15,435 nucleotides of DNA from a virus (IMGVR_UViG_2778261395_000001), one strand, 5' to 3'; counted from the stretch's first letter, positions 766 to 15,435 are shown. The notes: generated from the sequence alone by a model not told the origin. Program-made: numbers and translations.

Positions 766-1929
766 TTACGCCTTCTTTATATCCTCCATAATTCCAGAGT
801 GGGACATATTTGGGACATTATCACCAAAAATGTCGTCTATTTTCCTCGCATGCTCTGTCAAATGATTAGGCGCAAGGTGAGCATACCTACGAACCATTTC
901 TATGGACTCCCATCCGCCCATTTCCTGAAGCACTGATAATGGGACGCCTGACTGAATCAGCCAGCTTGCCCAGGTGTGTCTGAGGTCATGGAAACGGAAA
1001 TCTTCAATTCCTGCACGACGACAAGCTGATAGCCATGATGTCTTGCTGTCGATGCGCATCTTCCTGACCGCAGGCGTTGATGTTCCATCTGCTCGCTTAG
1101 CCGCCTTGGTATGTACAAACACCCATTTGTGATGCTTGCCTATTTGATCACGCAACACTTTACAGGCGGTATCGTTCAGCGCCACACCAATGGCGCGGTT
1201 TGATTTGCTCTCTTCTGGATTCACCCAGGCAACTCGTCGCTGCATGTCGATTTGTTGCCATTCCAGATTTATGATGTTCGACTTTCTCAGACCAGTTGCC
1301 AGCGCAAACTTGACGACAGATTTCAGTGGTTCGGGGCACTCATCAATAAGGCGTTTTGCTTCCTCCTTTTCCAGCCATCTGACTCGCTTGTTTCTGACCG
1401 CTGGTATCTTGATGACAGGCGCTTTTTCCAGCCACTTCCAGTCGCGTTCTGCAGCACGGAGAATGGCCTTTATCATGGCAAGATGCTTTGCCTTTGTCTG
1501 AGTTGATACTGGCTTTGGTTCATAAACAGGCAGTTCTTTACCTTTCCTGATGGCGGCCTGAACTTTCTGTTTCCATATTTCTTTCGTCTTTCTGTTATGC
1601 ATTCTGCTTACAGCAGAGTAAATCTTTGCCTCCGAGATATCTTTAAGCCTTATACCCTCAAAATGTTCAAGCCAGAACTCAATCCGGCTTTTATCTGAAT
1701 CGAGAGATTTTTTATCAGCTTTTTCCTCAAGCCATCTTAGGCAGGCCTCTTCAAAAGTGACATCAGGTAAATCCCCTAGCTTTTCTACTCGCCAGAGTTC
1801 TGCTTTTCGCTTGTCGTGCAACTCCTGAGCTTGCCGCTTGTCCTTTGTGCCAAGAGATTCCTTAATTCGTTTCCCGCCCGGGAGCGAATACGAGGCATAC
1901 CATATTTCATTTCTGCGGAAGAGTGACAT
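766..1929 (-). CDS. intD: Tyrosine-recombinase prophage integrase, 387 aa
   Basis: Complete ORF directly next to the tRNA 3' end; C-terminus carries the catalytic signature [11 protein letters not shown]...VRRYAHL (R..H-x-x-R..Y). Confidence 0.9.
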
Positions 1930-2770: not shown

Positions 2771-3085
2771 TCATCGCTCCTTAAAGACGCCGTTTAACAT
2801 GCCGATCGCCAGGCTTAAATGAGTCGGTGTGAATCCCATCAGCGTTACCGTTTCGCGGTGCTTCTTCAGTACGCTACGGCAAATGTCATCGACGTTTTTA
2901 TCCGGAAACTGCTGTCTGGCTTTTTTGATTTCAGAATTAGCCTGACGGGCTATGCTGCGAAGGGCGTTTTCCTGCTGAGGTGTCATTGAACAAGTCCCAT
3001 GTCGGCAAGCATAAGCACACAGAATATGAAGCCCGCTGCCAGAAAAATGCATTCCGTGGTTGTCATGCAGCCTCCCGACGGGCAA
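2771..3085 (-). CDS. Hypothetical small phage protein; start uncertain (ATG at 3085, or internal ATG at 2986 giving 71 aa)
   Basis: Open frame on the early-left strand; no recognisable motif; upstream part overlaps the 3' end of the Dam-like ORF. Confidence 0.35.
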   Translation of the reverse strand: MPVGRLHDNHGMHFSGSGLHILCAYACRHGTCSMTPQQENALRSIARQANSEIKKARQQFPDKNVDDICRSVLKKHRETVTLMGFTPTHLSLAIGMLNGVFKER

Positions 3086-3428
3086 GAATCCTTGAGCCGA
3101 ACGCCATCAACTCTCCACGATCAACGGTCGTAAAGTGGCAGTGTGTACGGGGGTATGGGTGCCAGATAATGAGCATCGAGCCTTTATTATTTCCACTGAC
3201 GTGTTTCCCGGTGAGTGGGTTAATAAATGCCAGTCGTCCTGCCGTGATGAATCTGACCTCACTGGCGGTTTGTATCGCTTCATGAAACCATCCGACAGAT
3301 GTGTCAGCAGGTAATAACATTACACATCCCACACTGCTGAATTTGTTTTCAGTGGCTGCCTTTTTCACAAAAGGGGAAATATTGCTGTATGGTGGATTCA
3401 ACCAGACATAACCAGAGGCATATCCCAT
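3063..3428 (-). pseudogene. Phage Dam-like DNA N6-adenine methyltransferase, 5'-truncated fragment
   Basis: NPPY catalytic motif (WLNPPY, nt 3387..3398) followed by LLPADTSVGWFHEAI and EVRFITAGRLAFINPLTG, resembling the phage Dam family. An in-frame stop lies two codons upstream of the first ATG, with no ribosome-binding site or expected N-terminal region. Confidence 0.55.
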
Positions 3429-3438
3429 TGCTTACTGG

Positions 3439-3675
3439 TTGGTTACCAACTTGTACCAGAACATGCGGGCCAATGCGCTGACTGACGCGGAATTACGGCG
3501 CAAGGCTGCCGATGAACTGTCCTGTATGACCGCGCGAATTAACCGTGGTGAGGCGATACCTGAACCAGTAAAACAACTTCCTGTCATGGGCGGTAGACCT
3601 CTAAATCGTGCACAGGCTCTGGCGAAGATCGCAGAAATCAAAGCTAAGTTCGGACTGAAAGGATCAAGTGTATGA
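3439..3675 (+). pseudogene. C-terminal fragment of a lambda P-like replication protein (P')
   Basis: Frame opens after a stop at 3409..3411 with no ATG; ends ...LAKIAEIKAKFGLKGSSV, overlapping the ren start (ATGA), as lambda P does. Identification is from gene order and recalled C-terminal similarity. Confidence 0.5.
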
Positions 3676-3974
3676 CGGGCAAAGAGGCAATTATTCATTA
3701 CCTGGGGACGCATAAGAGCTTCTGTGCACAGGACGTTGCCGCGGTAACAGGTGCAACCGTAACCAGCATAAATCAGGCTGCGGCTAAAATGGCGCGGGCA
3801 GGAATCCTGGTCGTTGATGGTAAGGTCTGGCGAACGGTGTATTACCGGTTCGCTACCAGAGAAGAACGGGAAGGAAAGGTGAGCACGAATCTGATTTTTA
3901 AGGAGTGTCGCCAGAGTGCCGCGATGAAACGGGTACTGAGGGTATATAAAAGAACATCAATGGGAACACAATGA
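3672..3974 (+). CDS. renD: Ren-like protein (lambda Ren homolog), 100 aa
   Basis: MTGKEAIIHYLGTH..FC..DVAA.TGATVTSINQAAAKMARAG..V..GKVWRTVYYRFATREEREGK.STNL.FKECRQSAAMKRVL is close to lambda Ren as I recall it. Confidence 0.8.
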   Translation: MTGKEAIIHYLGTHKSFCAQDVAAVTGATVTSINQAAAKMARAGILVVDGKVWRTVYYRFATREEREGKVSTNLIFKECRQSAAMKRVLRVYKRTSMGTQ

Positions 3975-3991
3975 TGAAACAGGTGAGTTGA

Positions 3992-4026
3992 GTTCAAACT
4001 GTAGTACAATTCTCTCCAGTTTGAAC
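3992..4026 (+). promoter_or_regulatory. Perfect 10-bp stem hairpin (GTTCAAACTG, 15-nt loop, CAGTTTGAAC) immediately upstream of the emrE ribosome-binding site
   Basis: Read directly; lies at the ren/emrE boundary. No T-run follows, so not a classic intrinsic terminator. Confidence 0.4.
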
Positions 4027-4041
4027 AGGAAAGAATATGCT

Positions 4042-4374
4042 ATGAACCCTTATATTTATCTTGGTGGTGCAATACTTGCAGAGGTCATTGGTACAACCTT
4101 AATGAAGTTTTCAGAAGGTTTTACACGGTTATGGCCATCTGTTGGTACAATTATTTGTTATTGTGCATCATTCTGGTTATTAGCTCAGACGCTGGCTTAT
4201 ATTCCTACAGGGATTGCTTATGGTATCTGGTCAGGAGTCGGTATTGTCCTGATTAGCTTACTGTCATGGGGATTTTTCGGCCAACGGCTGGACCTGCCAG
4301 CCATTATAGGCATGATGTTGATTTGTGCCGGTGTGTTGGTTATTAATTTATTGTCACGAAGCACACCACATTAA
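4042..4374 (+). CDS. emrE: Small multidrug resistance (SMR) efflux transporter EmrE, 110 aa
   Basis: MNPYIYLGGAILAEVIGTTLMKFSEGFTRLWPSVG...LLSRSTPH matches EmrE; conserved membrane-embedded Glu14 present; four hydrophobic segments. Confidence 0.9.
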   Translation: MNPYIYLGGAILAEVIGTTLMKFSEGFTRLWPSVGTIICYCASFWLLAQTLAYIPTGIAYGIWSGVGIVLISLLSWGFFGQRLDLPAIIGMMLICAGVLVINLLSRSTPH

Positions 4375-4404
4375 AATAATTTGTTTCTAAACGACTAAAA
4401 TATG

Positions 4405-4447
4405 GAGGCTCTTATATTTATATGAGCCTCGTTTTATGCTTTTTGTT
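4405..4447 (+). terminator. Intrinsic terminator after emrE
   Basis: Stem GAGGCTC / GAGCCTC with an AT loop, followed by GTTTTATGCTTTTTGTT. Confidence 0.55.
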
Positions 4448-4628
4448 AATGTCTTTATTTTTTATGTATTCTTTTGTGCTTTCAAGATTATGGCGTAAGA
4501 AAATTGCAATACGATTATTGTTGTATATTCAAGATAATGTGACCTTAATTGTCTTTTTAAATAAAAATTAAACAAAAATTATATCCCACCACTAAGGTTT
4601 ATAAAAGCATACGTTAGCAGGTGTCACC

Positions 4629-6155
4629 ATGAAAAAAGCCATAGCATATATGCGATTTTCATCACCAGGTCAGATGTCTGGCGACTCATTAAACCGACAG
4701 AGAAGACTTATTGCTGAATGGTTAAAGGTAAATAGTGATTATTATCTTGATACCATAACATATGAAGATTTAGGATTAAGTGCATTCAAAGGAAAGCATG
4801 CACAATCAGGAGCTTTTTCGGAATTTTTAGATGCTATAGAGCATGGTTATATATTGCCAGGAACTACATTGTTAGTTGAAAGTCTGGACAGACTTTCAAG
4901 AGAAAAAGTCGGTGAAGCGATTGAACGTCTGAAATTGATTTTGAATCACGGTATTGATGTTATAACTCTTTGCGACAATACAGTCTATAATATTGACTCT
5001 TTGAATGAGCCATATTCATTAATAAAAGCCATACTTATAGCACAAAGGGCAAATGAAGAAAGCGAGATAAAGTCAAGTCGGGTTAAATTATCATGGAAGA
5101 AAAAACGGCAGGATGCACTGGAATCAGGTACGATTATGACGGCGTCTTGTCCGAGATGGCTCTCCTTAGATGACAAAAGAACGGCTTTTGTTCCAGACCC
5201 CGACAGGGTGAAAACTATTGAGCTAATTTTTAAACTCAGGATGGAAAGGCGCTCATTGAATGCAATAGCCAAGTATTTAAATGATCATGCTGTAAAGAAT
5301 TTCTCAGGAAAAGAAAGTGCATGGGGACCTTCTGTAATTGAAAAATTATTAGCGAATAAAGCTCTGATAGGTATATGCGTACCTTCATATCGTGCAAGAG
5401 GGAAAGGGATAAGTGAAATCGCTGGCTATTATCCCAGAGTCATATCAGATGATTTGTTTTACGCTGTACAGGAAATTCGGTTGGCACCTTTTGGTATTAG
5501 CAATAGTAGCAAGAATCCTATGCTAATAAATCTACTTCGAACAGTTATGAAGTGTGAGGCTTGTGGTAATACCATGATTGTTCATGCGGTATCTGGAAGT
5601 TTGCATGGCTATTATGTTTGTCCGATGAGAAGATTACATCGATGTGACAGGCCATCAATAAAAAGAGATTTGGTTGATTATAATATCATTAATGAATTGC
5701 TTTTTAATTGTAGCAAAATTCAACCAGTTGAAAACAAGAAAGATGCTAATGAAACTTTAGAGTTAAAAATTATTGAGCTTCAGATGAAAATTAATAATTT
5801 AATCGTTGCATTGTCTGTCGCGCCTGAAGTTACCGCTATAGCAGAGAAAATAAGACTATTAGATAAGGAATTACGAAGGGCTTCGGTATCATTGAAAACT
5901 TTGAAGAGTAAAGGTGTAAATTCATTCAGTGATTTTTATGCTATTGACTTAACCAGTAAAAATGGACGAGAGTTATGCCGTACACTTGCCTATAAAACAT
6001 TCGAAAAAATCATAATTAATACGGATAATAAAACCTGTGATATCTATTTTATGAATGGCATTGTTTTTAAACACTATCCTTTAATGAAAGTAATATCCGC
6101 CCAGCAGGCGATAAGTGCTCTCAAATATATGGTTGATGGTGAGATTTATTTCTAA
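4629..6155 (+). CDS. ybcK: Large serine recombinase (resolvase-type catalytic domain, recombinase domain, zinc ribbon), 508 aa
   Basis: N-terminal AYMRFSSPGQ...R motif typical of serine recombinases; C-terminal CEACGN...YYVCP Cys cluster; AGGTG ribosome-binding site; AT-rich codon usage. Confidence 0.8.
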   Translation: MKKAIAYMRFSSPGQMSGDSLNRQRRLIAEWLKVNSDYYLDTITYEDLGLSAFKGKHAQSGAFSEFLDAIEHGYILPGTTLLVESLDRLSREKVGEAIERLKLILNHGIDVITLCDNTVYNIDSLNEPYSLIKAILIAQRANEESEIKSSRVKLSWKKKRQDALESGTIMTASCPRWLSLDDKRTAFVPDPDRVKTIELIFKLRMERRSLNAIAKYLNDHAVKNFSGKESAWGPSVIEKLLANKALIGICVPSYRARGKGISEIAGYYPRVISDDLFYAVQEIRLAPFGISNSSKNPMLINLLRTVMKCEACGNTMIVHAVSGSLHGYYVCPMRRLHRCDRPSIKRDLVDYNIINELLFNCSKIQPVENKKDANETLELKIIELQMKINNLIVALSVAPEVTAIAEKIRLLDKELRRASVSLKTLKSKGVNSFSDFYAIDLTSKNGRELCRTLAYKTFEKIIINTDNKTCDIYFMNGIVFKHYPLMKVISAQQAISALKYMVDGEIYF

Positions 6156-6619
6156 ATAATGATCTCGGATTTTAAGTTATGCTATGGTGATAAAGTGCAA
6201 GACAGAATTAATTATCTTTGACGAAACTTAATGGGTAATTACTTTGTTTGCTCCCACAAGCGAGTTTTGTACGGCTGTATTGGGGTAGTAAATGAGCTAT
6301 ACAATCTTAATCATTTGTTAGGTGAGAACTCTTGGTCGCAGATTCAAATACTGAAAATACGTGACAAATTATTATGAGCAAAATGGTGTATGTCACGTAT
6401 TTTGAATGGTAGGTTAAAAAATAACACCGACTTTCGTAGGTATTACTAATAATAAAGCAGAGTTTTTAGATAGTATCAATGTGCTTTGTGTATATTGTGG
6501 CAAATAATTGGGTTGGGGGTACAATTGTGATTGCTTTTGCATGAACATTGCGCCTTTATGCATAATGAGATAAAGGAATATCAAATAAAATAACGATAGG
6601 TCATAACAAAGAGGTTTTT

Positions 6620-7171
6620 ATGAAAACACTTATCGTTTCAACTGTATTGGCATTCATAACATTTTCTGCGCAGGCTGCAGCATTTCAGGTCACTAGTAAT
6701 GAAATAAAAACAGGAGAGCAACTTACAACGTCTCATGTCTTTTCTGGATTTGGGTGTGAAGGTGGTAATACATCGCCCTCATTAACCTGGTCTGGTGTTC
6801 CTGAAGGTACCAAAAGCTTTGCCGTAACTGTATATGATCCAGATGCACCTACAGGCAGTGGTTGGTGGCATTGGACTGTTGTTAATATTCCAGCAACAGT
6901 AACATATTTGCCCGTTGATGCAGGGAGACGTGATGGAACAAAACTGCCGACTGGTGCTGTTCAAGGCCGAAATGATTTTGGCTATGCTGGGTTTGGTGGC
7001 GCATGTCCTCCTAAAGGAGATAAACCACATCATTACCAGTTTAAAGTATGGGCTCTAAAAACTGAAAAGATTCCTGTAGATTCTAACTCCAGCGGAGCGT
7101 TAGTTGGTTATATGCTTAATGCTAATAAAATCGCAACCGCTGAGATAACACCAGTTTATGAGATAAAGTAG
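6620..7171 (+). CDS. ybcL: Periplasmic PEBP/RKIP-family protein (YbcL-like) with signal peptide, 183 aa
   Basis: Signal peptide MKTLIVSTVLAFITFSAQA; PEBP-like core motifs DPDAP and HHY; AGAGGT ribosome-binding site. Confidence 0.8.
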   Translation: MKTLIVSTVLAFITFSAQAAAFQVTSNEIKTGEQLTTSHVFSGFGCEGGNTSPSLTWSGVPEGTKSFAVTVYDPDAPTGSGWWHWTVVNIPATVTYLPVDAGRRDGTKLPTGAVQGRNDFGYAGFGGACPPKGDKPHHYQFKVWALKTEKIPVDSNSSGALVGYMLNANKIATAEITPVYEIK

Positions 7172-7180
7172 GGTGAGAGT

Positions 7181-7978
7181 ATGCTGGCAAGAGGTAAGAC
7201 TAACTTAAAGATCGAAGAAATACGGATGCATAAACATCATGAGATTCATAGGGTTAAGCCTCTTATGCCAGCTTTGTGTCGTATCCGTCAGGGAAAGAAA
7301 GTTATCAATTGGGAGACGCATACTTTAACTGTTGATAATAATCAAATAATATTATTTCCTTGTGGTTATGAATTTTATATTGAGAATTATCCTGAAGCAG
7401 GGCTTTATCTTGCAGAAATGCTTTACTTACCCATTGATTTAATTGAGAGTTTCCAAAAACTTTATACGGTAACTGATCAAATACGTAACAAAACAAGTTT
7501 CTTTTTACCTCAGAATCCTGAGTTAATATATTGTTGGGAGCAACTAAAAACATCTGTTTCCCGAGGCTTCTCAACTAAAATTCAGGAGCACTTAGCAATG
7601 GGCGTTCTACTATCGTTAGGAGTGAATCATGTTAATCATTTACTTTTATCATATAGTAAACAATCATTGATAAGTCGTTGTTATAACCTGCTGCTATCCG
7701 AACCCGGCACAAAATGGACAGCAAACAAGGTTGCTCGATATCTCTACATTTCTGTTTCTACATTACATCGCCGTCTAGCAAGCGAGGGGGTAAGTTTCCA
7801 AAGTATACTGGACGATGTGAGGTTAAATAATGCGTTGTCTGCTATACAAACGACGGTAAAACCTATAAGCGAGATTGCCAGAGAAAATGGTTATAAGTGT
7901 CCTTCTCGTTTTACTGAAAGATTTCATAATCGTTTTAATATAACACCAAGAGAGATAAGAAAAGCTTCCAGAGAGTAA
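7181..7978 (+). CDS. ybcM: AraC/XylS-family transcriptional regulator, 265 aa
   Basis: C-terminal AraC-type HTH region (...[33 protein letters not shown]...[15 protein letters not shown]); starts 10 nt after ybcL, so probably co-transcribed. Confidence 0.75.
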
Positions 7979-8042
7979 AAGTGTTTTAAGAAGGAGCAAT
8001 TCTATCGATTTTGATTTTGGGAAATCAACACGGCATAATTAT

Positions 8043-8080
8043 GTCACCGGAGCCTGAACAACTCCGGTGACTTCTGCGCT
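8043..8080 (+). terminator. Hairpin with perfect 10-bp stem (GTCACCGGAG / CTCCGGTGAC) followed by TTCTGCGCT; possible terminator after ybcM
   Basis: Read directly; the T-tract is weak, so terminator function is uncertain. Confidence 0.4.
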
Positions 8081-8094
8081 AAACGGGGACGTTT

Positions 8095-8196
8095 ATGCGC
8101 ACATACAATCCAAACTCTCTTCTCCCTTCACAGATGCAGAAATGCACCTGCAATTCTTTGCATCTAGCGTTTGACCTCTGCGGAGGTGAAGCGTGA
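8095..8196 (+). CDS. ylcH: Small ORF, 33 aa (ylcH-like), stop overlapping the ybcN start
   Basis: [33 protein letters not shown]; coding status not demonstrable from sequence alone. Confidence 0.3.
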
Positions 8197-8648
8197 ACCT
8201 CTCACAAGACGGCATCAAATTACATCGCGGCAACTTCACCGCTATCGGTCGGCAGATCCAGCCTTATCTGGAGGAGGGCAAATGCTTTCGCATGGTGCTT
8301 AAACCGTGGCGTGAGAAACGCAGTCTTTCCCAGAATGCACTCAGCCACATGTGGTACAGCGAAATCAGTGAATACCTCATCAGCAGGGGTAAAACGTTCG
8401 CCACTCCAGCTTGGGTAAAAGATGCTCTCAAACACACATATCTCGGTTATGAAACCAAAGACCTGGTTGATGTCGTAACCGGTGATATCACCACTATCCA
8501 GTCGTTACGCCATACCTCCGACCTTGATACCGGAGAGATCTATGTCTTCCTGTGTAAGGTTGAAGCCTGGGCGATGAATATTGGCTGCCACCTGACTATT
8601 CCGCAGAGCTGCGAGTTCCAGCTGCTGCGTGATAAGCAGGAGGCGTAA
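8193..8648 (+). CDS. ybcN: NinB-family phage protein (YbcN-like), 151 aa, GTG start
   Basis: Complete ORF starting at a GTG after GGAGGTG; first gene of a tightly overlapping nin-type operon. Confidence 0.75.
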
Positions 8649-9682: not shown

Positions 9683-10066
9683 ATGCGTGATATTCAGATG
9701 GTTCTTGAGCGTTGGGGAGCGTGGGCGGCTAATAATCATGAAGATGTGACCTGGTCGTCCATTGCCGCCGGTTTTAAGGGATTAATTCCTTCAAAAGTAA
9801 AATCTCGCCCACAATGTTGTGACGATGACGCGATGATCATTTGCGGGTGCATGGCCCGTCTGAAAAAGAACAACAGCGATTTGCATGATTTATTAGTAGA
9901 TTATTATGTAGTCGGTATGACATTCATGTCACTGGCAGGTAAGCATTGCTGCTCTGATGGTTATATCGGGAAAAGGTTACAGAAGGCTGAGGGCATAATT
10001 GAAGGGATGTTAATGGCATTAGATATCCGGTTAGAGATGGATATCGTTGTTAATAACTCTAATTAA
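9683..10066 (+). CDS. quuD: Late-gene antiterminator Q-like protein, 127 aa
   Basis: [24 protein letters not shown]...[16 protein letters not shown]... with Cys-rich zinc-binding region; GGAGTAAG ribosome-binding site; sits at the end of the nin region where Q is expected. Confidence 0.8.
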
Positions 10067-10255
10067 TATGCCAATTGTTTACTAAAAATTATTAAAAATG
10101 GGGCGTTGAGACGCCCCCAAAAATAAAGGGTAATATATAACAGAAGGTTTATATAGTTAGAAGCAAGGTTGTGCTTCTAAAGGAAGTGGCTTGAGGGAGC
10201 CACTTATATGTTGGGGAGGCAAAGCCTCCCGCAACATATCTTTTTCGTAATCAGA
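10067..10255 (+). promoter_or_regulatory. Hairpin-rich region downstream of Q: candidate late promoter/qut/terminator, including a near-perfect ~15-bp palindrome (10208..10241) followed by CTTTTT
   Basis: Stems GGGGCG/CGCCCC (10098..10115), GTGGCT/AGCCAC, and ATATGTTGGGGAGGC-AAA-GCCTCCCGCAACATAT, then a T-run. Functions are inferred from position only. Confidence 0.35.
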
Positions 10256-11338
10256 TTAGAACTGATACACCAGACCTACAGCGACGATGTCGTCGGTATC
10301 AATACCAGCTGTTTTGGTAAACTTACTATCGTCAATTAAGTTGATTTTGTAATCAACAAAAGTGGACATGTTTTTATTAAAGTAGTAAGTAGCACCGACA
10401 TCGACATACTTGACTAAGTCTCGGTCACCATGAACACCAAGGTCTTTACCTTTTGACTGAAGGTAAGCAACAGATGGTCGCAGACCGAAGTCAAACTGAT
10501 ATTGTGCTACTGCTTCAAAGTTTTGTGCTTTGTTTGCAATATGGTTATTACCAAAAACGGTCATATTCTGAGTTTCAGAATATGTGGTAGCCAGATAGAT
10601 ATTGTTCGCATCATATTTCAGGCCTGCAGCCCATACTTCCGCATTTTTGCCGGAGGCATTGAATTTGCTCTTACCATAGGCGACCTGACCGTCAGTGCGA
10701 TCTGATTTAGCATAGGTTGCACCCACGCCGAATCCTTCATACTCATAAGTAGTGGAGAAACCGAAACCATCACCATTGGCTTCAGTTACGTCAGTGCGGT
10801 CATTTTTACCCTGATACTGAGCAGCAAAGTTCAGGCCATCGACCAGACCAAAGAAGTCGTTGTTACGATAGGTTGCAACACCAGTGGTGCGACCAGTCAT
10901 GAACACATCTGTTTGGGTCCAGGTATCGCCACCGAATTCTGGCAGAACGTCAGTCCACGCACCGATGTCGTATGCTACACCGTAGTTACGGCCGTAATCG
11001 ATTGAGCCGTAGTCACCGAATTTCAGGCCTGCAAATGCAAGACGGGTTTTGTCTTTGGAGGAACCTTGAGATTCAGCGCGGTTGCCTTTGAATTCATATT
11101 CCCACTGACCGAAACCAGTCAGTTGATCGTTGATTTGGGTTTCACCTTTGAAGCCAAGACGGGCATAAGTAGTATCACCATCATCTGCATCGTTAGAGGA
11201 AAAGTAGTGCTTGGCATTAACTTTCCCGTACAGATCCAGCTTGTTACTGTCTTTATTATAAATTTCAGCTGCCTGAGCAGACATCGCCATCAGTACTGAT
11301 GCAGCTACAGCAGAAATTGCCACTGTTAATTTTTTCAT
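10256..11338 (-). CDS. nmpC: Outer-membrane general porin (OmpC/OmpD/NmpC family), apparently intact, 360 aa
   Basis: Signal peptide [23 protein letters not shown], then [17 protein letters not shown]...; ends with the porin C-terminal signature ...VAVGLVYQF. Confidence 0.9.
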
Positions 11339-11926
11339 CGTGAGCCCTTTTTTTTGAACTATTATTAAAAAATGATGTCACTGCGCGATAAATATTCATC
11401 TAATCAATGTGATTATTTCAAGATGTAAGTTTTAGTTTCTCATTTAATTTGTGAAGTAGATCTCTATTTTTATCTGAACTTTTTCTATCGAAACCTATTT
11501 ATGGCTCTTATTTGAACAAAAATAAACCTATTAGCTAATTTATATTAATGGCTGTTATTTATGGGGGTTCTATAATTCAGTGGTTTAATTTAAATCAACT
11601 AAAAATAACGCCGGAAATTATTTATTGGTTATTTGTTGAGGTTTTCTTATATATTTGTGGTGGTGTTTTGAACACTCGGTAGCATTCTCATAAATATCAT
11701 TCAGTGGTTTACGTACGTAAAAAATTGGTTATGCTGTTAAGAGTGGTTACTTCGTCACACAGCTTAAACCCGCCGTCGAGCTGGTTTTTCCATTTTTTGA
11801 GTCTCGATATTAGCTGATAACTCAATACCTGAGTTATTCACTGACTCCGAGTCTGTTACGTTTCTGCTTTTTTGCGATACGTTGTATTCCCTCAATTTAC
11901 ACCCGCTTTGTCTGCGAGGTGGGGTT

Positions 11927-14139: not shown

Positions 14140-15435
<1,296 letters not shown>

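What the first reader, a model, noticed from the sequence alone, without database searches (positions are those of the whole stretch)
3975..8090. AT-rich cargo block with a large serine recombinase inside the prophage
Between ren and the nin region sits a markedly AT-rich 4-kb block (emrE, ybcK, ybcL, ybcM) that is not part of lambdoid phage gene order. It contains its own serine recombinase (ybcK), separate from the prophage tyrosine integrase. The block is bracketed by two perfect 10-bp stem hairpins (3992..4026 and 8043..8071) and has long AT-rich intergenic stretches (4375..4628, 6156..6619). This is consistent with a separately acquired element or moron cluster, possibly mobilised by YbcK. 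It is the least-characterised part of the window and the best place to look for function not explained by phage biology.
Basis: partly seen in the sequence, partly recalled or inferred. Interest (0 to 1): 0.5.

Follow-up and report, generated by a model that had tools for sequence, protein, structure and literature searches.

The report
Mosaic cargo cluster in DLP12 prophage
The AT-rich block is the known emrE-ylcJ-ybcK-ybcL-ybcM accessory gene cluster of the E. coli DLP12-type prophage, a patchwork of separate cassettes in a variable cargo slot rather than an element moved by its serine recombinase YbcK, whose function is still unknown.

Summary
Window 3944-8009 is AT-rich (GC 0.363 against 0.47 in the flanks). 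It carries emrE, ylcJ, ybcK, ybcL and ybcM, and both 10-bp hairpins are at the stated coordinates.

The block is accessory cargo ("morons") between ren and the nin genes of a DLP12-type defective prophage at argU. It is at least three independent cassettes, not one element:
- emrE: 3944-4376
- ylcJ-ybcK: 4377-6464
- ybcL-ybcM: 6465-8009

Other E. coli prophages fill the same slot with different cargo.

The two hairpins are unrelated. One is the emrE leader. The other is a repeat in the conserved nin leader, already annotated in phage 82 and present whatever the cargo.

YbcK is an intact large serine recombinase under purifying selection (dN/dS about 0.08). It occurs in prophages with different tyrosine integrases at different attachment sites. 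No att-like ends were found. None of 5,426 complete genomes carries a precise empty site for the whole block, and none shows recent loss of ylcJ-ybcK.

Across Enterobacterales, YbcK relatives relocate as single-gene cassettes between the two classical prophage cargo hotspots.

The block is ordinary and largely known. What YbcK does remains open.

The parts
3672..3974 (+). ren, the last backbone gene before the cargo slot. Homology with prophages lacking the block ends at about 3934-3943, inside its 3' end.
   Evidence: Annotation of matching records; breakpoints from blastn against L006-L008.
3944..4376 (+). emrE cassette: leader, emrE (4042-4374) and stop codon. It occurs with ylcJ-ybcK in prophages and without them in the fliE-yedK chromosomal island, where homology starts at 3966.
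   Evidence: Pfam Multi_Drug_Res E=1.9e-34; dN/dS 0.01-0.02 against the island copy.
3992..4026 (+). Perfect 10-bp stem hairpin in the emrE 5' leader. It travels with emrE. There is no covariation, and the island copy has one uncompensated mismatch.
4405..4430 (+). Hairpin followed by GTTTTATGCTTTTTG, an intrinsic-terminator-like structure after emrE. It overlaps the start of ylcJ and is absent from the fliE island copy.
   Evidence: -13.6 kcal/mol, z -4.0; breakpoint at 4376-4381.
4377..6464 (+). ylcJ-ybcK segment (2088 bp, GC 0.342), absent from the fliE island copy. It is flanked by CATTAAAATAAT (4369-4380) and TATTACTAATAAT (6442-6454).
4422..4571 (+). ylcJ, a 49-aa hydrophobic small protein. 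It does not accompany YbcK homologues in other genera.
   Evidence: Pfam YlcJ-like E=2.4e-35; tblastn negative in L012, L014 and L016.
4629..6155 (+). ybcK, a 508-aa large serine recombinase with an intact catalytic set and zinc ribbon, under purifying selection.
6197..6464 (.). Spacer specific to the ybcK-ybcL configuration. It is found only in the 675 genomes with the full block.
6354..6403 (.). Perfect 13-bp inverted repeat with a 24-bp spacer (AAAATACGTGACA...TGTCACGTATTTT). Its function is unknown. The spacer is not symmetric by my reading of the sequence (3 of 12 positions), and there is no counterpart near YbcK homologues.
   Evidence: (-18.9 kcal/mol, z -3.8).
6465..8009 (+). ybcL-ybcM cassette: ybcL 6620-7171 (periplasmic PEBP/RKIP-like) and ybcM 7181-7978 (AraC-type regulator). 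Other ybcK-bearing prophages have different cargo or nothing here.
   Evidence: dN/dS 0.08-0.13 against the island copies.
8010..8196 (+). Conserved nin-leader backbone: promoter-like -35 (8011-8016) and -10 (8034-8039), the 29-bp hairpin/repeat 8043-8071, and the small ORF ylcH/orf33 (8095-8196), which overlaps the start of ybcN (8193). It is present in all compared prophages whatever their cargo, and is duplicated on both sides of the cargo in L008.

Best explanation
The block is a composite moron cluster: accessory genes that are not needed for phage growth. It sits in the variable cargo slot between ren (or P) and the ninB-like gene ybcN of a DLP12-type lambdoid prophage.

It was assembled stepwise from at least three cassettes: emrE; ylcJ-ybcK; and ybcL-ybcM.

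The joins are of two kinds. The first is homologous exchange through the conserved flanks, namely the ren 3' end and the 190-bp nin leader starting at 8010. The second is illegitimate joining. Assembly by these routes is inferred from the junction anatomy.

In this window the phage early promoters are deleted, so I infer that the genes run from their own signals. emrE has its own leader and a terminator-like hairpin. ybcK is reported to be silenced by Rho-dependent termination in its 5' untranslated region.

emrE, ybcL and ybcM are kept by the host when the prophage decays: they survive in the fliE-yedK island of about 2,580 genomes. ybcK is not kept there.

YbcK is a functional large serine recombinase gene that travels as a single-gene cassette. 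It does not define or move the block, and it is not the prophage integrase. Its DNA substrates are unknown.
For: Slot variability. Between ren/P and ybcN, E. coli prophages carry:
- the full block (668 genomes at >=80% coverage)
- emrE-ylcJ-ybcK with a truncated antirepressor gene, with an esterase, or with nothing more
- an inverse autotransporter plus esterase
- a DUF4041 protein
- an antirepressor plus a HEPN protein
- hypothetical proteins

Different breakpoints for each comparison: 3934-3943 and 8009-8011 against prophages without the block; 6196 against other ybcK prophages; 4376 and 6465 against the fliE island.

Illegitimate junction: in L003-L005 the ybcK module is fused to the middle of a P22AR-like gene.

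Recombination through the flanks: the nin leader is conserved in all configurations and is duplicated around the cargo in L008.

fliE-yedK island: it equals window 3966-4376 + 6465-8195 + 9968-11667 at 87-92% identity.

All four genes are under purifying selection.

YbcK is not the integrase. The same protein (97-100% identity) occurs in prophages and complete phages at argU (IntD-type integrase) and at icd (a different tyrosine integrase plus excisionase).

No precise excision products. 0 of 5,426 genomes carry a whole-block empty site. The only emrE-ybcL junctions without ybcK are 80-91% identical, which marks an old lineage.

Family behaviour. Close YbcK relatives in different contexts share only the gene plus short flanks. 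No terminal repeats were seen at the ends of three of these pairs. Their neighbours are typical cargo: umuDC-like genes, lom/ail, an autotransporter, an esterase, a porin.

Rho-dependent silencing upstream of ybcK is reported in PMC4150792.
Against: - A weak direct repeat flanks the 2088-bp ylcJ-ybcK segment (CATTAAAATAAT / TATTACTAATAAT).
- In the esterase configuration (L005) a 30-bp copy of the emrE stop region recurs after ybcK (score 40 against a null maximum of 27). This could mark a site-specific insertion at the emrE stop codon.
- A perfect 50-bp dyad (6354-6403) lies 200 bp downstream of ybcK and is unexplained.
- Strong purifying selection on ybcK means it does something. I did not identify what, so a role in rearranging this region under conditions not sampled by genome sequences cannot be excluded.
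- Promoters for the cargo genes were not demonstrated. The consensus scan was at chance level (17 found against 15.8 expected).
Confidence: 0.75

Rival explanations
1. One reading: the whole 4-kb block is one discrete integrative element that was acquired as a unit and is excised or integrated by YbcK, with the two hairpins marking its ends.
For: - The block is compositionally distinct.
- It contains an intact large serine recombinase.
- It is absent from some related prophages.
Against: - The sub-cassettes occur independently, with different breakpoints.
- The hairpins are unrelated in sequence. One is backbone, present without the block and annotated in phage 82. The other is the emrE leader.
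- No empty site exists in 5,426 genomes.
- There are no inverted or direct repeats at the block ends.
- The block is never found as a unit outside the ren-ybcN slot.
Confidence: 0.04
2. The 2.1-kb ylcJ-ybcK segment is a minimal self-inserting element (IS-like, with a large serine transposase) that integrated at the emrE stop codon. The family spreads between prophage cargo hotspots by its own recombinase activity.
For: - The segment is cleanly absent from the fliE island copy, with short similar sequences at both junctions.
- L005 has a significant 30-bp repeat of the emrE stop region after ybcK.
- Family members relocate as single-gene units of 1.6-2.0 kb.
- The gene is under purifying selection.
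Against: - There are no inverted half-sites at the unit ends. The ends differ between pairs (-222/+56, -62/+405, -127/+4, -68/0 relative to the ORF).
- The right-hand part of the segment (6197-6464) is replaced by an antirepressor gene fragment in other ybcK prophages.
- The junction repeat is AT-rich and short, and is equally explained by a microhomology deletion in the heavily deleted island lineage.
- The emrE-end repeat test was not significant in the window, L003 or L004.
- No recent empty sites were found.
Confidence: 0.1
3. YbcK with the 50-bp dyad at 6354-6403 is a second, alternative integration module. The dyad would be an attP-like site that lets the phage use a secondary attachment site.
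For: - Serine integrase genes commonly lie next to their attP (established knowledge).
- The dyad is 50 bp long, with perfect 13-bp outer arms.
- Four of the six diverged homologue loci with gene annotation are at or near prophage ends next to host genes or another prophage.
Against: - Only the outer arms are symmetric. By my reading of the sequence, the inner 24 bp match at 3 of 12 positions, unlike known attP sites.
- The dyad is absent from the other ybcK-bearing prophages and phages, so it is not required with ybcK.
- There is no comparable dyad next to the homologues.
- The arm sequence is not concentrated at junctions.
- Near-identical recombinase genes lie at the ends of different prophages with different downstream flanks, in Ewingella and E. 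coli.
Confidence: 0.07
4. ybcK is a decaying relic of a former integration module, with no present function.
For: - It is transcriptionally silenced by Rho in K-12 (PMC4150792).
- It was lost from the domesticated fliE island.
Against: - dN/dS is 0.07-0.2 with intact ORFs in all copies examined.
- 1,398 of the 1,424 E. coli genomes with a match carry a place covering at least 80% of the gene.
- Catalytic and zinc-binding residues are invariant in homologues down to 29% identity.
Confidence: 0.03

Closest known systems
Phage morons in lambdoid prophages (extra genes inserted between conserved backbone genes; concept of Juhala, Hendrix and colleagues, from my own knowledge)
   Same: Extra genes lie between two conserved backbone genes. 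Their composition differs from the backbone. They are variably present among close relatives. Hairpins or terminators sit at cassette edges. The genes benefit the host, as lom, bor and the DLP12 porin elsewhere in this window are held to do.
   Different: Here several cassettes are stacked in one slot, and one of them is a recombinase rather than a host-fitness gene. Promoters of the cassettes were not demonstrated.
DLP12 cryptic prophage of E. coli K-12 and B (emrE, ylcJ, ybcK, ybcL, ybcM, ylcH, ybcN...)
   Same: The window is this locus. It matches E. coli B REL606 at 99.9% over its whole length and matches K-12 apart from IS insertions.
   Different: In the window the porin gene is intact, and ren is not interrupted by IS3. 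The comparative dissection into cassettes and the link to the fliE-yedK island were worked out here. I found no paper describing them.
Large serine recombinases that act as phage integrases (A118/LI Int, SPbeta SprA, TP901-1 Int, phiC31, Bxb1)
   Same: YbcK has the same domain order: catalytic domain with the serine nucleophile, recombinase domain, and zinc ribbon with an embedded coiled coil. Profile matches: A118 Int 1.9e-16, SprA 4e-15, TP901-1 1e-4.
   Different: YbcK is not next to a recognisable attP, attL or attR. It coexists with a tyrosine integrase that accounts for the integration site. It sits inside the early-right operon. No directionality factor is known for it.
Large serine transposases of small mobile elements (TnpX of Tn4451, TndX of Tn5397, CcrAB of SCCmec; from my own knowledge)
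   Same: Each is a large serine recombinase carried on a small mobile unit inside a larger genome.
   Different: Those elements have defined ends and a dinucleotide crossover, form circles, and occur as presence/absence polymorphisms with constant boundaries. None of this was found for the block or for the ylcJ-ybcK segment.
nin-region leader of phage 82 (GenBank X92588: putative -35/-10, 29-bp 'possible regulator-binding site', orf33, orf151)
   Same: Window 7995-8198 is 97.5% identical to it. The annotated repeat is the 8043-8071 hairpin.
   Different: None. It is the same feature. Its function is still only putative.

Membership tests
Large serine recombinase (YbcK) | N-terminal resolvase-type catalytic domain with the serine nucleophile and conserved Arg/Asp/Glu residues | tested here: met
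   Pfam Resolvase E=5.5e-19. R9, S11, D87, R88, R91, E143 and E144 are invariant in 20 homologues at 29-61% identity. The profile aligns with the TP901-1 catalytic domain.
Large serine recombinase (YbcK) | C-terminal recombinase domain plus zinc ribbon domain with four cysteines and an embedded coiled coil | tested here: met
   Pfam Recombinase E=2.3e-14 and Zn_ribbon_recom E=7.9e-8. C309, C312, C331 and C339 are invariant. The profile aligns over profile positions 247-475 with the A118 integrase C-terminal domain and SPbeta SprA.
Large serine recombinase (YbcK) | Cognate att or res sites with dyad symmetry around a central dinucleotide | tested here: inconclusive
   The only candidate is the 6354-6403 dyad. 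Only its outer arms are symmetric, it is absent from other ybcK-bearing phages, and there is no analogue near the homologues.
Large serine recombinase (YbcK) | Catalytic activity (strand exchange) and a directionality factor | not testable with these tools
   Needs in vitro or in vivo recombination assays.
Integrative element mobilised by its own serine recombinase (applied to the whole block) | Constant element ends in all carriers | tested here: not met
   The breakpoints differ with each comparison, and the sub-cassettes occur separately.
Integrative element mobilised by its own serine recombinase (applied to the whole block) | attL/attR half-sites or terminal repeats at the ends | tested here: not met
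   No inverted or direct repeat links the two ends. The two hairpins differ in sequence and belong to the emrE leader and the nin leader.
Integrative element mobilised by its own serine recombinase (applied to the whole block) | Precise empty sites in related genomes | tested here: not met
   The synthetic junction 3943|8010 is contiguous in 0 of 5,426 genomes. The junction 4376|6465 occurs only at 80-91% identity, in the old island lineage.
Integrative element mobilised by its own serine recombinase (applied to the whole block) | Occurrence of the unit at more than one kind of genomic site | tested here: not met
   With ybcK, the block is found only in the ren-ybcN slot of lambdoid prophages. 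The fliE-yedK copy lacks ybcK and is a collapsed prophage.
Phage moron cluster | Lies between backbone genes that are adjacent or differently filled in related phages | tested here: met
   At least nine different fillings of the ren/P-ybcN interval were seen.
Phage moron cluster | Base composition distinct from the backbone | tested here: met
   GC 0.363 against 0.47.
Phage moron cluster | Own promoter and terminator, and expression from the repressed prophage | tested here: inconclusive
   A terminator-like hairpin follows emrE. The promoter scan was at chance level. Phage early promoters are deleted in this window, and transcripts are reported in the literature, but no promoter was mapped here.
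Small multidrug resistance transporter (EmrE) | Roughly 110-aa protein matching the SMR family over its full length | tested here: met
   Pfam Multi_Drug_Res E=1.9e-34, residues 3-94 of 110; annotated emrE in RefSeq.
Intrinsic terminator (applied to hairpin 8043-8071) | GC-rich stem followed directly by a run of T | tested here: not met
   The stem is strong (-22.2 kcal/mol), but the tail is TTCTGCGC and the loop is 9 nt. The terminator scan did not call it.

The most novel reading that the evidence does not exclude
YbcK-type proteins form an uncharacterised clade of 'orphan' large serine recombinases in Enterobacterales. The gene behaves as a stand-alone cassette. It moves between the two cargo hotspots of temperate phages: after P/ren, and after the tail-fibre genes. 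It is kept under strong purifying selection, yet does not serve as the prophage integrase. That would imply a new job for a serine integrase-like enzyme. It might act in trans on host or rival-phage DNA, for competition or exclusion, or it might spread as a gene-sized selfish element by a mechanism that leaves no classical att scars.
Probability: 0.2. Interest if true: 0.65.

Novelty: already known. Interest (0 to 1): 0.25.

Why it matters
For the block itself, little changes. It is the annotated DLP12 cargo region, and the right-hand hairpin was already annotated in the phage 82 record.

Three points are useful:
- The ren-ninB interval is a stacked, highly variable cargo slot in E. coli lambdoid prophages. 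Such slots are good places to look for host-fitness and anti-phage genes: a DUF4041 protein, a HEPN protein, an inverse autotransporter and an esterase all occur here.
- emrE, ybcL, ybcM and the porin have been domesticated into a chromosomal island in about half of E. coli. That says which cargo the host values.
- ybcK is a maintained serine recombinase, present in 1,424 of the 5,426 genomes searched, that apparently does not integrate its phage. It is a cheap, well-defined target for experiments on what else such enzymes do.

Tried and rejected
- Looked for the emrE 3' end recurring downstream of ybcK as an attL/attR signature. It was significant only in L005 (0 of 300 shuffles), not in the window, L003 or L004.
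- Looked for a shared palindrome or att-like dyad next to YbcK homologues in six other loci. None was found.
- Looked for terminal inverted repeats at the ends of the recombinase units shared between contexts. None was found.
- Tested whether ylcJ accompanies homologues, as a possible partner or directionality factor. It does not.
- Rfam search of 3600-8400 for a riboswitch or leader RNA at the emrE hairpin. The only hit was a chance-level lncRNA match.
- PADLOC scan of all block proteins. No defence family matched.
- phmmer of YbcK alone against PDB found nothing. The family profile was needed.
- Considered the emrE leader as unusually conserved: 2 differences in about 71 nt against the island copy. 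By my own rough estimate this is within chance at about 8% divergence, so I dropped it.
- Considered YbcK as a tail-fibre invertase, because homologues follow tail-fibre assembly genes. Rejected, because no inverted tail-fibre gene copies are present there.
- Literature searches found no mechanistic work on ybcK or on this slot. They returned only a sabinene-tolerance phenotype (PMC7181518) and Rho-dependent silencing (PMC4150792).
- I could not see the far ends of the prophages that carry terminal homologues, because flanks are limited to 10 kb. So I cannot say whether those prophages have a tyrosine integrase.

Full report
**Identity of the window.** The window is the DLP12-type defective lambdoid prophage at the argU tRNA gene of E. 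coli. It matches E. coli B REL606 at 99.9% over its whole length. Positions 3600-8500 are 100% identical to strain WP4-S18-ESBL-08, and match K-12 apart from an IS3 insertion.

Gene positions, from the matching annotated records and my own ORF list:

| Feature | Window coordinates |
|---|---|
| intD | 766-1929 (minus strand) |
| truncated methyltransferase gene abutting a truncated P gene | junction at about 3430 |
| ren | 3672-3974 |
| emrE | 4042-4374 |
| ylcJ | 4422-4571 |
| ybcK | 4629-6155 |
| ybcL | 6620-7171 |
| ybcM | 7181-7978 |
| ylcH/orf33 | 8095-8196 |
| ybcN (NinB-like) | 8193-8648 |

After ybcN come ninE, ybcO, rusA, ylcG, quuD, an intact porin gene (10256-11338, minus strand) and the lysis genes. 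The immunity and replication region is deleted, so the phage early promoters are absent here.

**Check of the observation.** The block is AT-rich: GC is 0.363 for 3944-8009 against 0.47 on both sides.

Both hairpins exist at the stated coordinates with perfect 10-bp stems. 3992-4026 folds at -13.4 kcal/mol (z -1.3). 8043-8071 folds at -22.2 kcal/mol (z -5.4). Perfect inverted repeats of 10 bp or more are enriched: 4 in the block against 0.21 expected.

The stretch 4375-4628 is not purely intergenic. It holds a terminator-like hairpin after emrE (4405-4430) and the small gene ylcJ.

**The block is a mosaic, not a unit.** A search of 5,426 complete E. coli genomes, followed by inspection of representative loci, showed many fillings of the interval between ren (or P) and ybcN:
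- The full block, in 668 genomes at >=80% coverage.
- emrE-ylcJ-ybcK followed by a truncated antirepressor-like gene plus a hypothetical gene (L003).
- emrE-ylcJ-ybcK followed by nothing more than an antirepressor remnant (L004, a prophage at icd).
- emrE-ylcJ-ybcK followed by an esterase on the opposite strand (L005, and phages 4A7 and 1W).
- An inverse autotransporter plus the esterase (L017, L018).
- A DUF4041 protein (L007).
- An antirepressor plus a HEPN protein (L008).
- Two hypothetical genes (L006).

The breakpoints differ with each comparison:
- Against prophages lacking the block, homology ends at 3934-3943, inside the 3' end of ren, and resumes at 8009-8011.
- Against other ybcK-bearing prophages, it ends at 6196.
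- Against the ybcK-less form, the window-specific segment is 4377-6464.

In L003-L005 the ybcK module is fused to the middle of a P22AR-like gene. Only the C-terminal roughly 100 codons of the 203-aa L008 version remain. This is an illegitimate join.

**The ybcK-less form is a domesticated prophage remnant.** About 2,580 genomes carry emrE-ybcL-ybcM without ybcK between fliE and yedK. That island equals window 3966-4376 + 6465-8195 + 9968-11667 at 87-92% identity. It still includes the nin leader up to the ybcN start codon and the region downstream of quuD with the porin gene.

It is therefore a collapsed DLP12-like prophage. It has kept only emrE, ybcL, ybcM and the porin, and has lost the phage genes and ybcK. 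emrE, ybcL and ybcM are under purifying selection between the two lineages (dN/dS 0.01-0.13).

**The two hairpins are unrelated features.** The left one lies in the emrE leader and travels with emrE to the island. It shows no covariation, and the island copy has one uncompensated mismatch.

The right one lies 34 bp inside the conserved backbone, which starts at 8010. It is present in every prophage examined, whatever the cargo. Its loop core TGAAC is invariant, and stem changes are mostly compatible with G-U pairing.

The phage 82 record X92588 is 97.5% identical over window 7995-8198. It annotates a putative -35 (window 8011-8016), a -10 (8034-8039), this 29-bp repeat as a 'possible regulator-binding site', orf33 and orf151. 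The phi80 record annotates an inverted repeat at the same place.

In L008 a second copy of this leader lies on the other side of the cargo. That is what exchange through this conserved sequence would leave behind.

**YbcK is a real, maintained large serine recombinase.**
- Pfam finds Resolvase, Recombinase and Zn_ribbon_recom domains. PHROGs places it in the serine integrase family.
- In 20 homologues at 29-61% identity, R9, S11, D87, R88, R91, E143, E144 and the four zinc-ribbon cysteines are invariant.
- The family profile matches the A118 integrase C-terminal domain (1.9e-16), SPbeta SprA (4e-15) and the TP901-1 catalytic domain (1e-4).
- Among E. coli copies, the most diverged pair has 39 synonymous and 12 nonsynonymous differences (dN/dS 0.08). 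All copies examined are intact.
- 1,424 of 5,426 genomes carry the gene. In 1,398 of them a match covers at least 80% of it.

**YbcK does not define or move the block, and is not the prophage integrase.**
- The same protein (97-100% identity) is found in complete phages and prophages with different tyrosine integrases at different sites: argU with IntD (PhiR34_1, this window) and icd with another integrase plus excisionase (4A7, strain 143).
- No inverted or direct repeat links the block ends.
- A synthetic whole-block empty site (3943 joined to 8010) is contiguous in none of the 5,426 genomes.
- A synthetic ylcJ-ybcK empty site (4376 joined to 6465) is contiguous in 2,582 genomes, but only at 80-91% identity. 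That is the old island lineage. None reaches the >=95% identity expected of a recent excision.
- The 268-bp stretch 6197-6464 exists only in the 675 full-block genomes.

**Behaviour of the YbcK family.** Full-length homologues (41-61% identity) occur across Enterobacterales. Gene maps of 6 loci with Pfam annotation and 16 further loci show two recurrent positions.
- After P/ren in the early-right operon: E. coli, Atlantibacter L024, Pantoea L016, and Pantoea alvi L038 in inverted orientation.
- After the tail-fibre and tail-fibre assembly genes at the prophage end: L012 next to the tmRNA gene, L014, L019 next to lepA, L021, L026/L027 after umuDC-like genes, L028, and L033 after lom-like genes.

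A few further loci are in plasmid-like contexts. The two positions are the classical cargo hotspots of lambdoid phages (established knowledge).

Where close relatives sit in different contexts, the shared DNA is only the gene plus short flanks:

| Pair | Identity | Shared length | Extent relative to the ORF |
|---|---|---|---|
| L029/L038 | 93.9% | 1808 bp | -222 to +56 |
| L021/L026-27 | 87% | 2.0 kb | -62 to +405 |
| L016/L035 | 83% | 1649 bp | -127 to +4 |
| L012/L024 | 76% | 1602 bp | -68 to 0 |

The ends differ between pairs. The three pairs whose ends I examined carry no terminal repeats. The gene therefore behaves as a single-gene moron cassette.

**Residual clues for a site-specific origin.**
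- The 2088-bp ylcJ-ybcK segment is flanked by CATTAAAATAAT and TATTACTAATAAT.
- In L005 a 30-bp copy of the emrE stop region recurs after ybcK (0 of 300 shuffles reach its score).
- These fit an insertion at the emrE stop codon. They also fit a microhomology deletion in the island lineage, or recombination between two emrE-bearing phages. The same test is not significant in the window, L003 or L004.
- The 6354-6403 dyad is 50 bp long, but only its outer arms are symmetric. It is absent from other ybcK phages and has no analogue near the homologues.

I keep these as minority rivals.

**Other checks.** No block protein matches a known defence family, and no Rfam family matches the region.

The literature offers only two things: Rho/NusG-dependent termination in the ybcK 5' untranslated region (PMC4150792), and a sabinene-tolerance phenotype on overexpression or deletion (PMC7181518). 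I found no mechanistic work on YbcK or on this slot.

**Verdict.** The finding describes a real but ordinary and largely known feature: a stacked cluster of accessory cassettes in the ren-ninB slot of a DLP12-type prophage. The proposal that YbcK mobilises the block is not supported. The one open question is what a maintained, orphan large serine recombinase does in these phages.

Noticed in passing
window 3966-4376, 6465-8195, 9968-11667 (compare L002 8001-11849): About 2,580 E. coli genomes carry a chromosomal island between fliE and yedK. It is a collapsed DLP12-like prophage retaining only emrE, ybcL, ybcM and the porin gene, at 87-92% identity. The nin genes ybcN to quuD and ylcJ-ybcK are cleanly missing.
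   Followed up: yes
window 6354-6403: Perfect 13-bp inverted repeat with a 24-bp spacer (50 bp in total), 200 bp downstream of ybcK. It is the strongest inverted repeat in the window, found only in the full-block configuration. Function unknown.
   Followed up: partly
window about 3063-3675: A truncated adenine methyltransferase gene (minus strand) abuts a truncated replication gene P at about 3430. The whole immunity/replication region (exo to O) is deleted, so this prophage is defective and has no early promoters.
   Followed up: partly
window 10256-11338 (minus strand): The DLP12 OmpC-like porin gene (nmpC type) is intact here. In the closest matching genome, REL606, it is split by IS1. From memory, it is split by IS5 in K-12.
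   Followed up: no
window 4876-4899, 10562-10584, 14288-14336: Three further perfect inverted repeats (stems of 10, 10 and 12 bp). One is inside the ybcK coding sequence, one is inside the porin gene, and one is near the 3' end of the window. None has been examined.
   Followed up: no
L008 4827-4955 and 7123-7315: In strain 07_3636 the conserved nin leader, hairpin included, occurs twice and flanks that prophage's cargo (antirepressor, HEPN protein, hypothetical). This looks like a footprint of cassette exchange through this sequence.
   Followed up: partly
L005 about 7839-7869 (also phage 4A7): A degenerate second copy of the emrE stop codon region and 3' untranslated sequence lies between the antirepressor remnant and the esterase terminator. 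It could be the remnant of a second emrE-like gene or an insertion scar.
   Followed up: partly
L021 9939-9957; L026 9936-9954: A TGTTCA-N5-TGAACA palindrome lies exactly at the left edge of the recombinase cassette shared between different Ewingella prophages, about 60 bp upstream of the start codon. It may be an operator.
   Followed up: no
L020 8145-11530: In a Citrobacter koseri plasmid- or ICE-like context (TraD, MobA/MobL nearby), the YbcK homologue is divergently adjacent to a 555-aa protein with a faint Shufflon_N match. That hints at a DNA-inversion role in that setting.
   Followed up: no
L026/L027 8148-9865; L012 7337-7684; L021 9453-9845: Several terminal YbcK homologues lie directly downstream of UmuD-like (S24 peptidase) genes. 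In Ewingella they follow UmuD/UmuC-like gene pairs, another common cargo of mobile elements.
   Followed up: no
window 14400-15300: GC rises to 0.55-0.66 at the right end of the window, in the terminase small subunit and truncated tail-tip gene region. This contrasts with the rest of the prophage.
   Followed up: no
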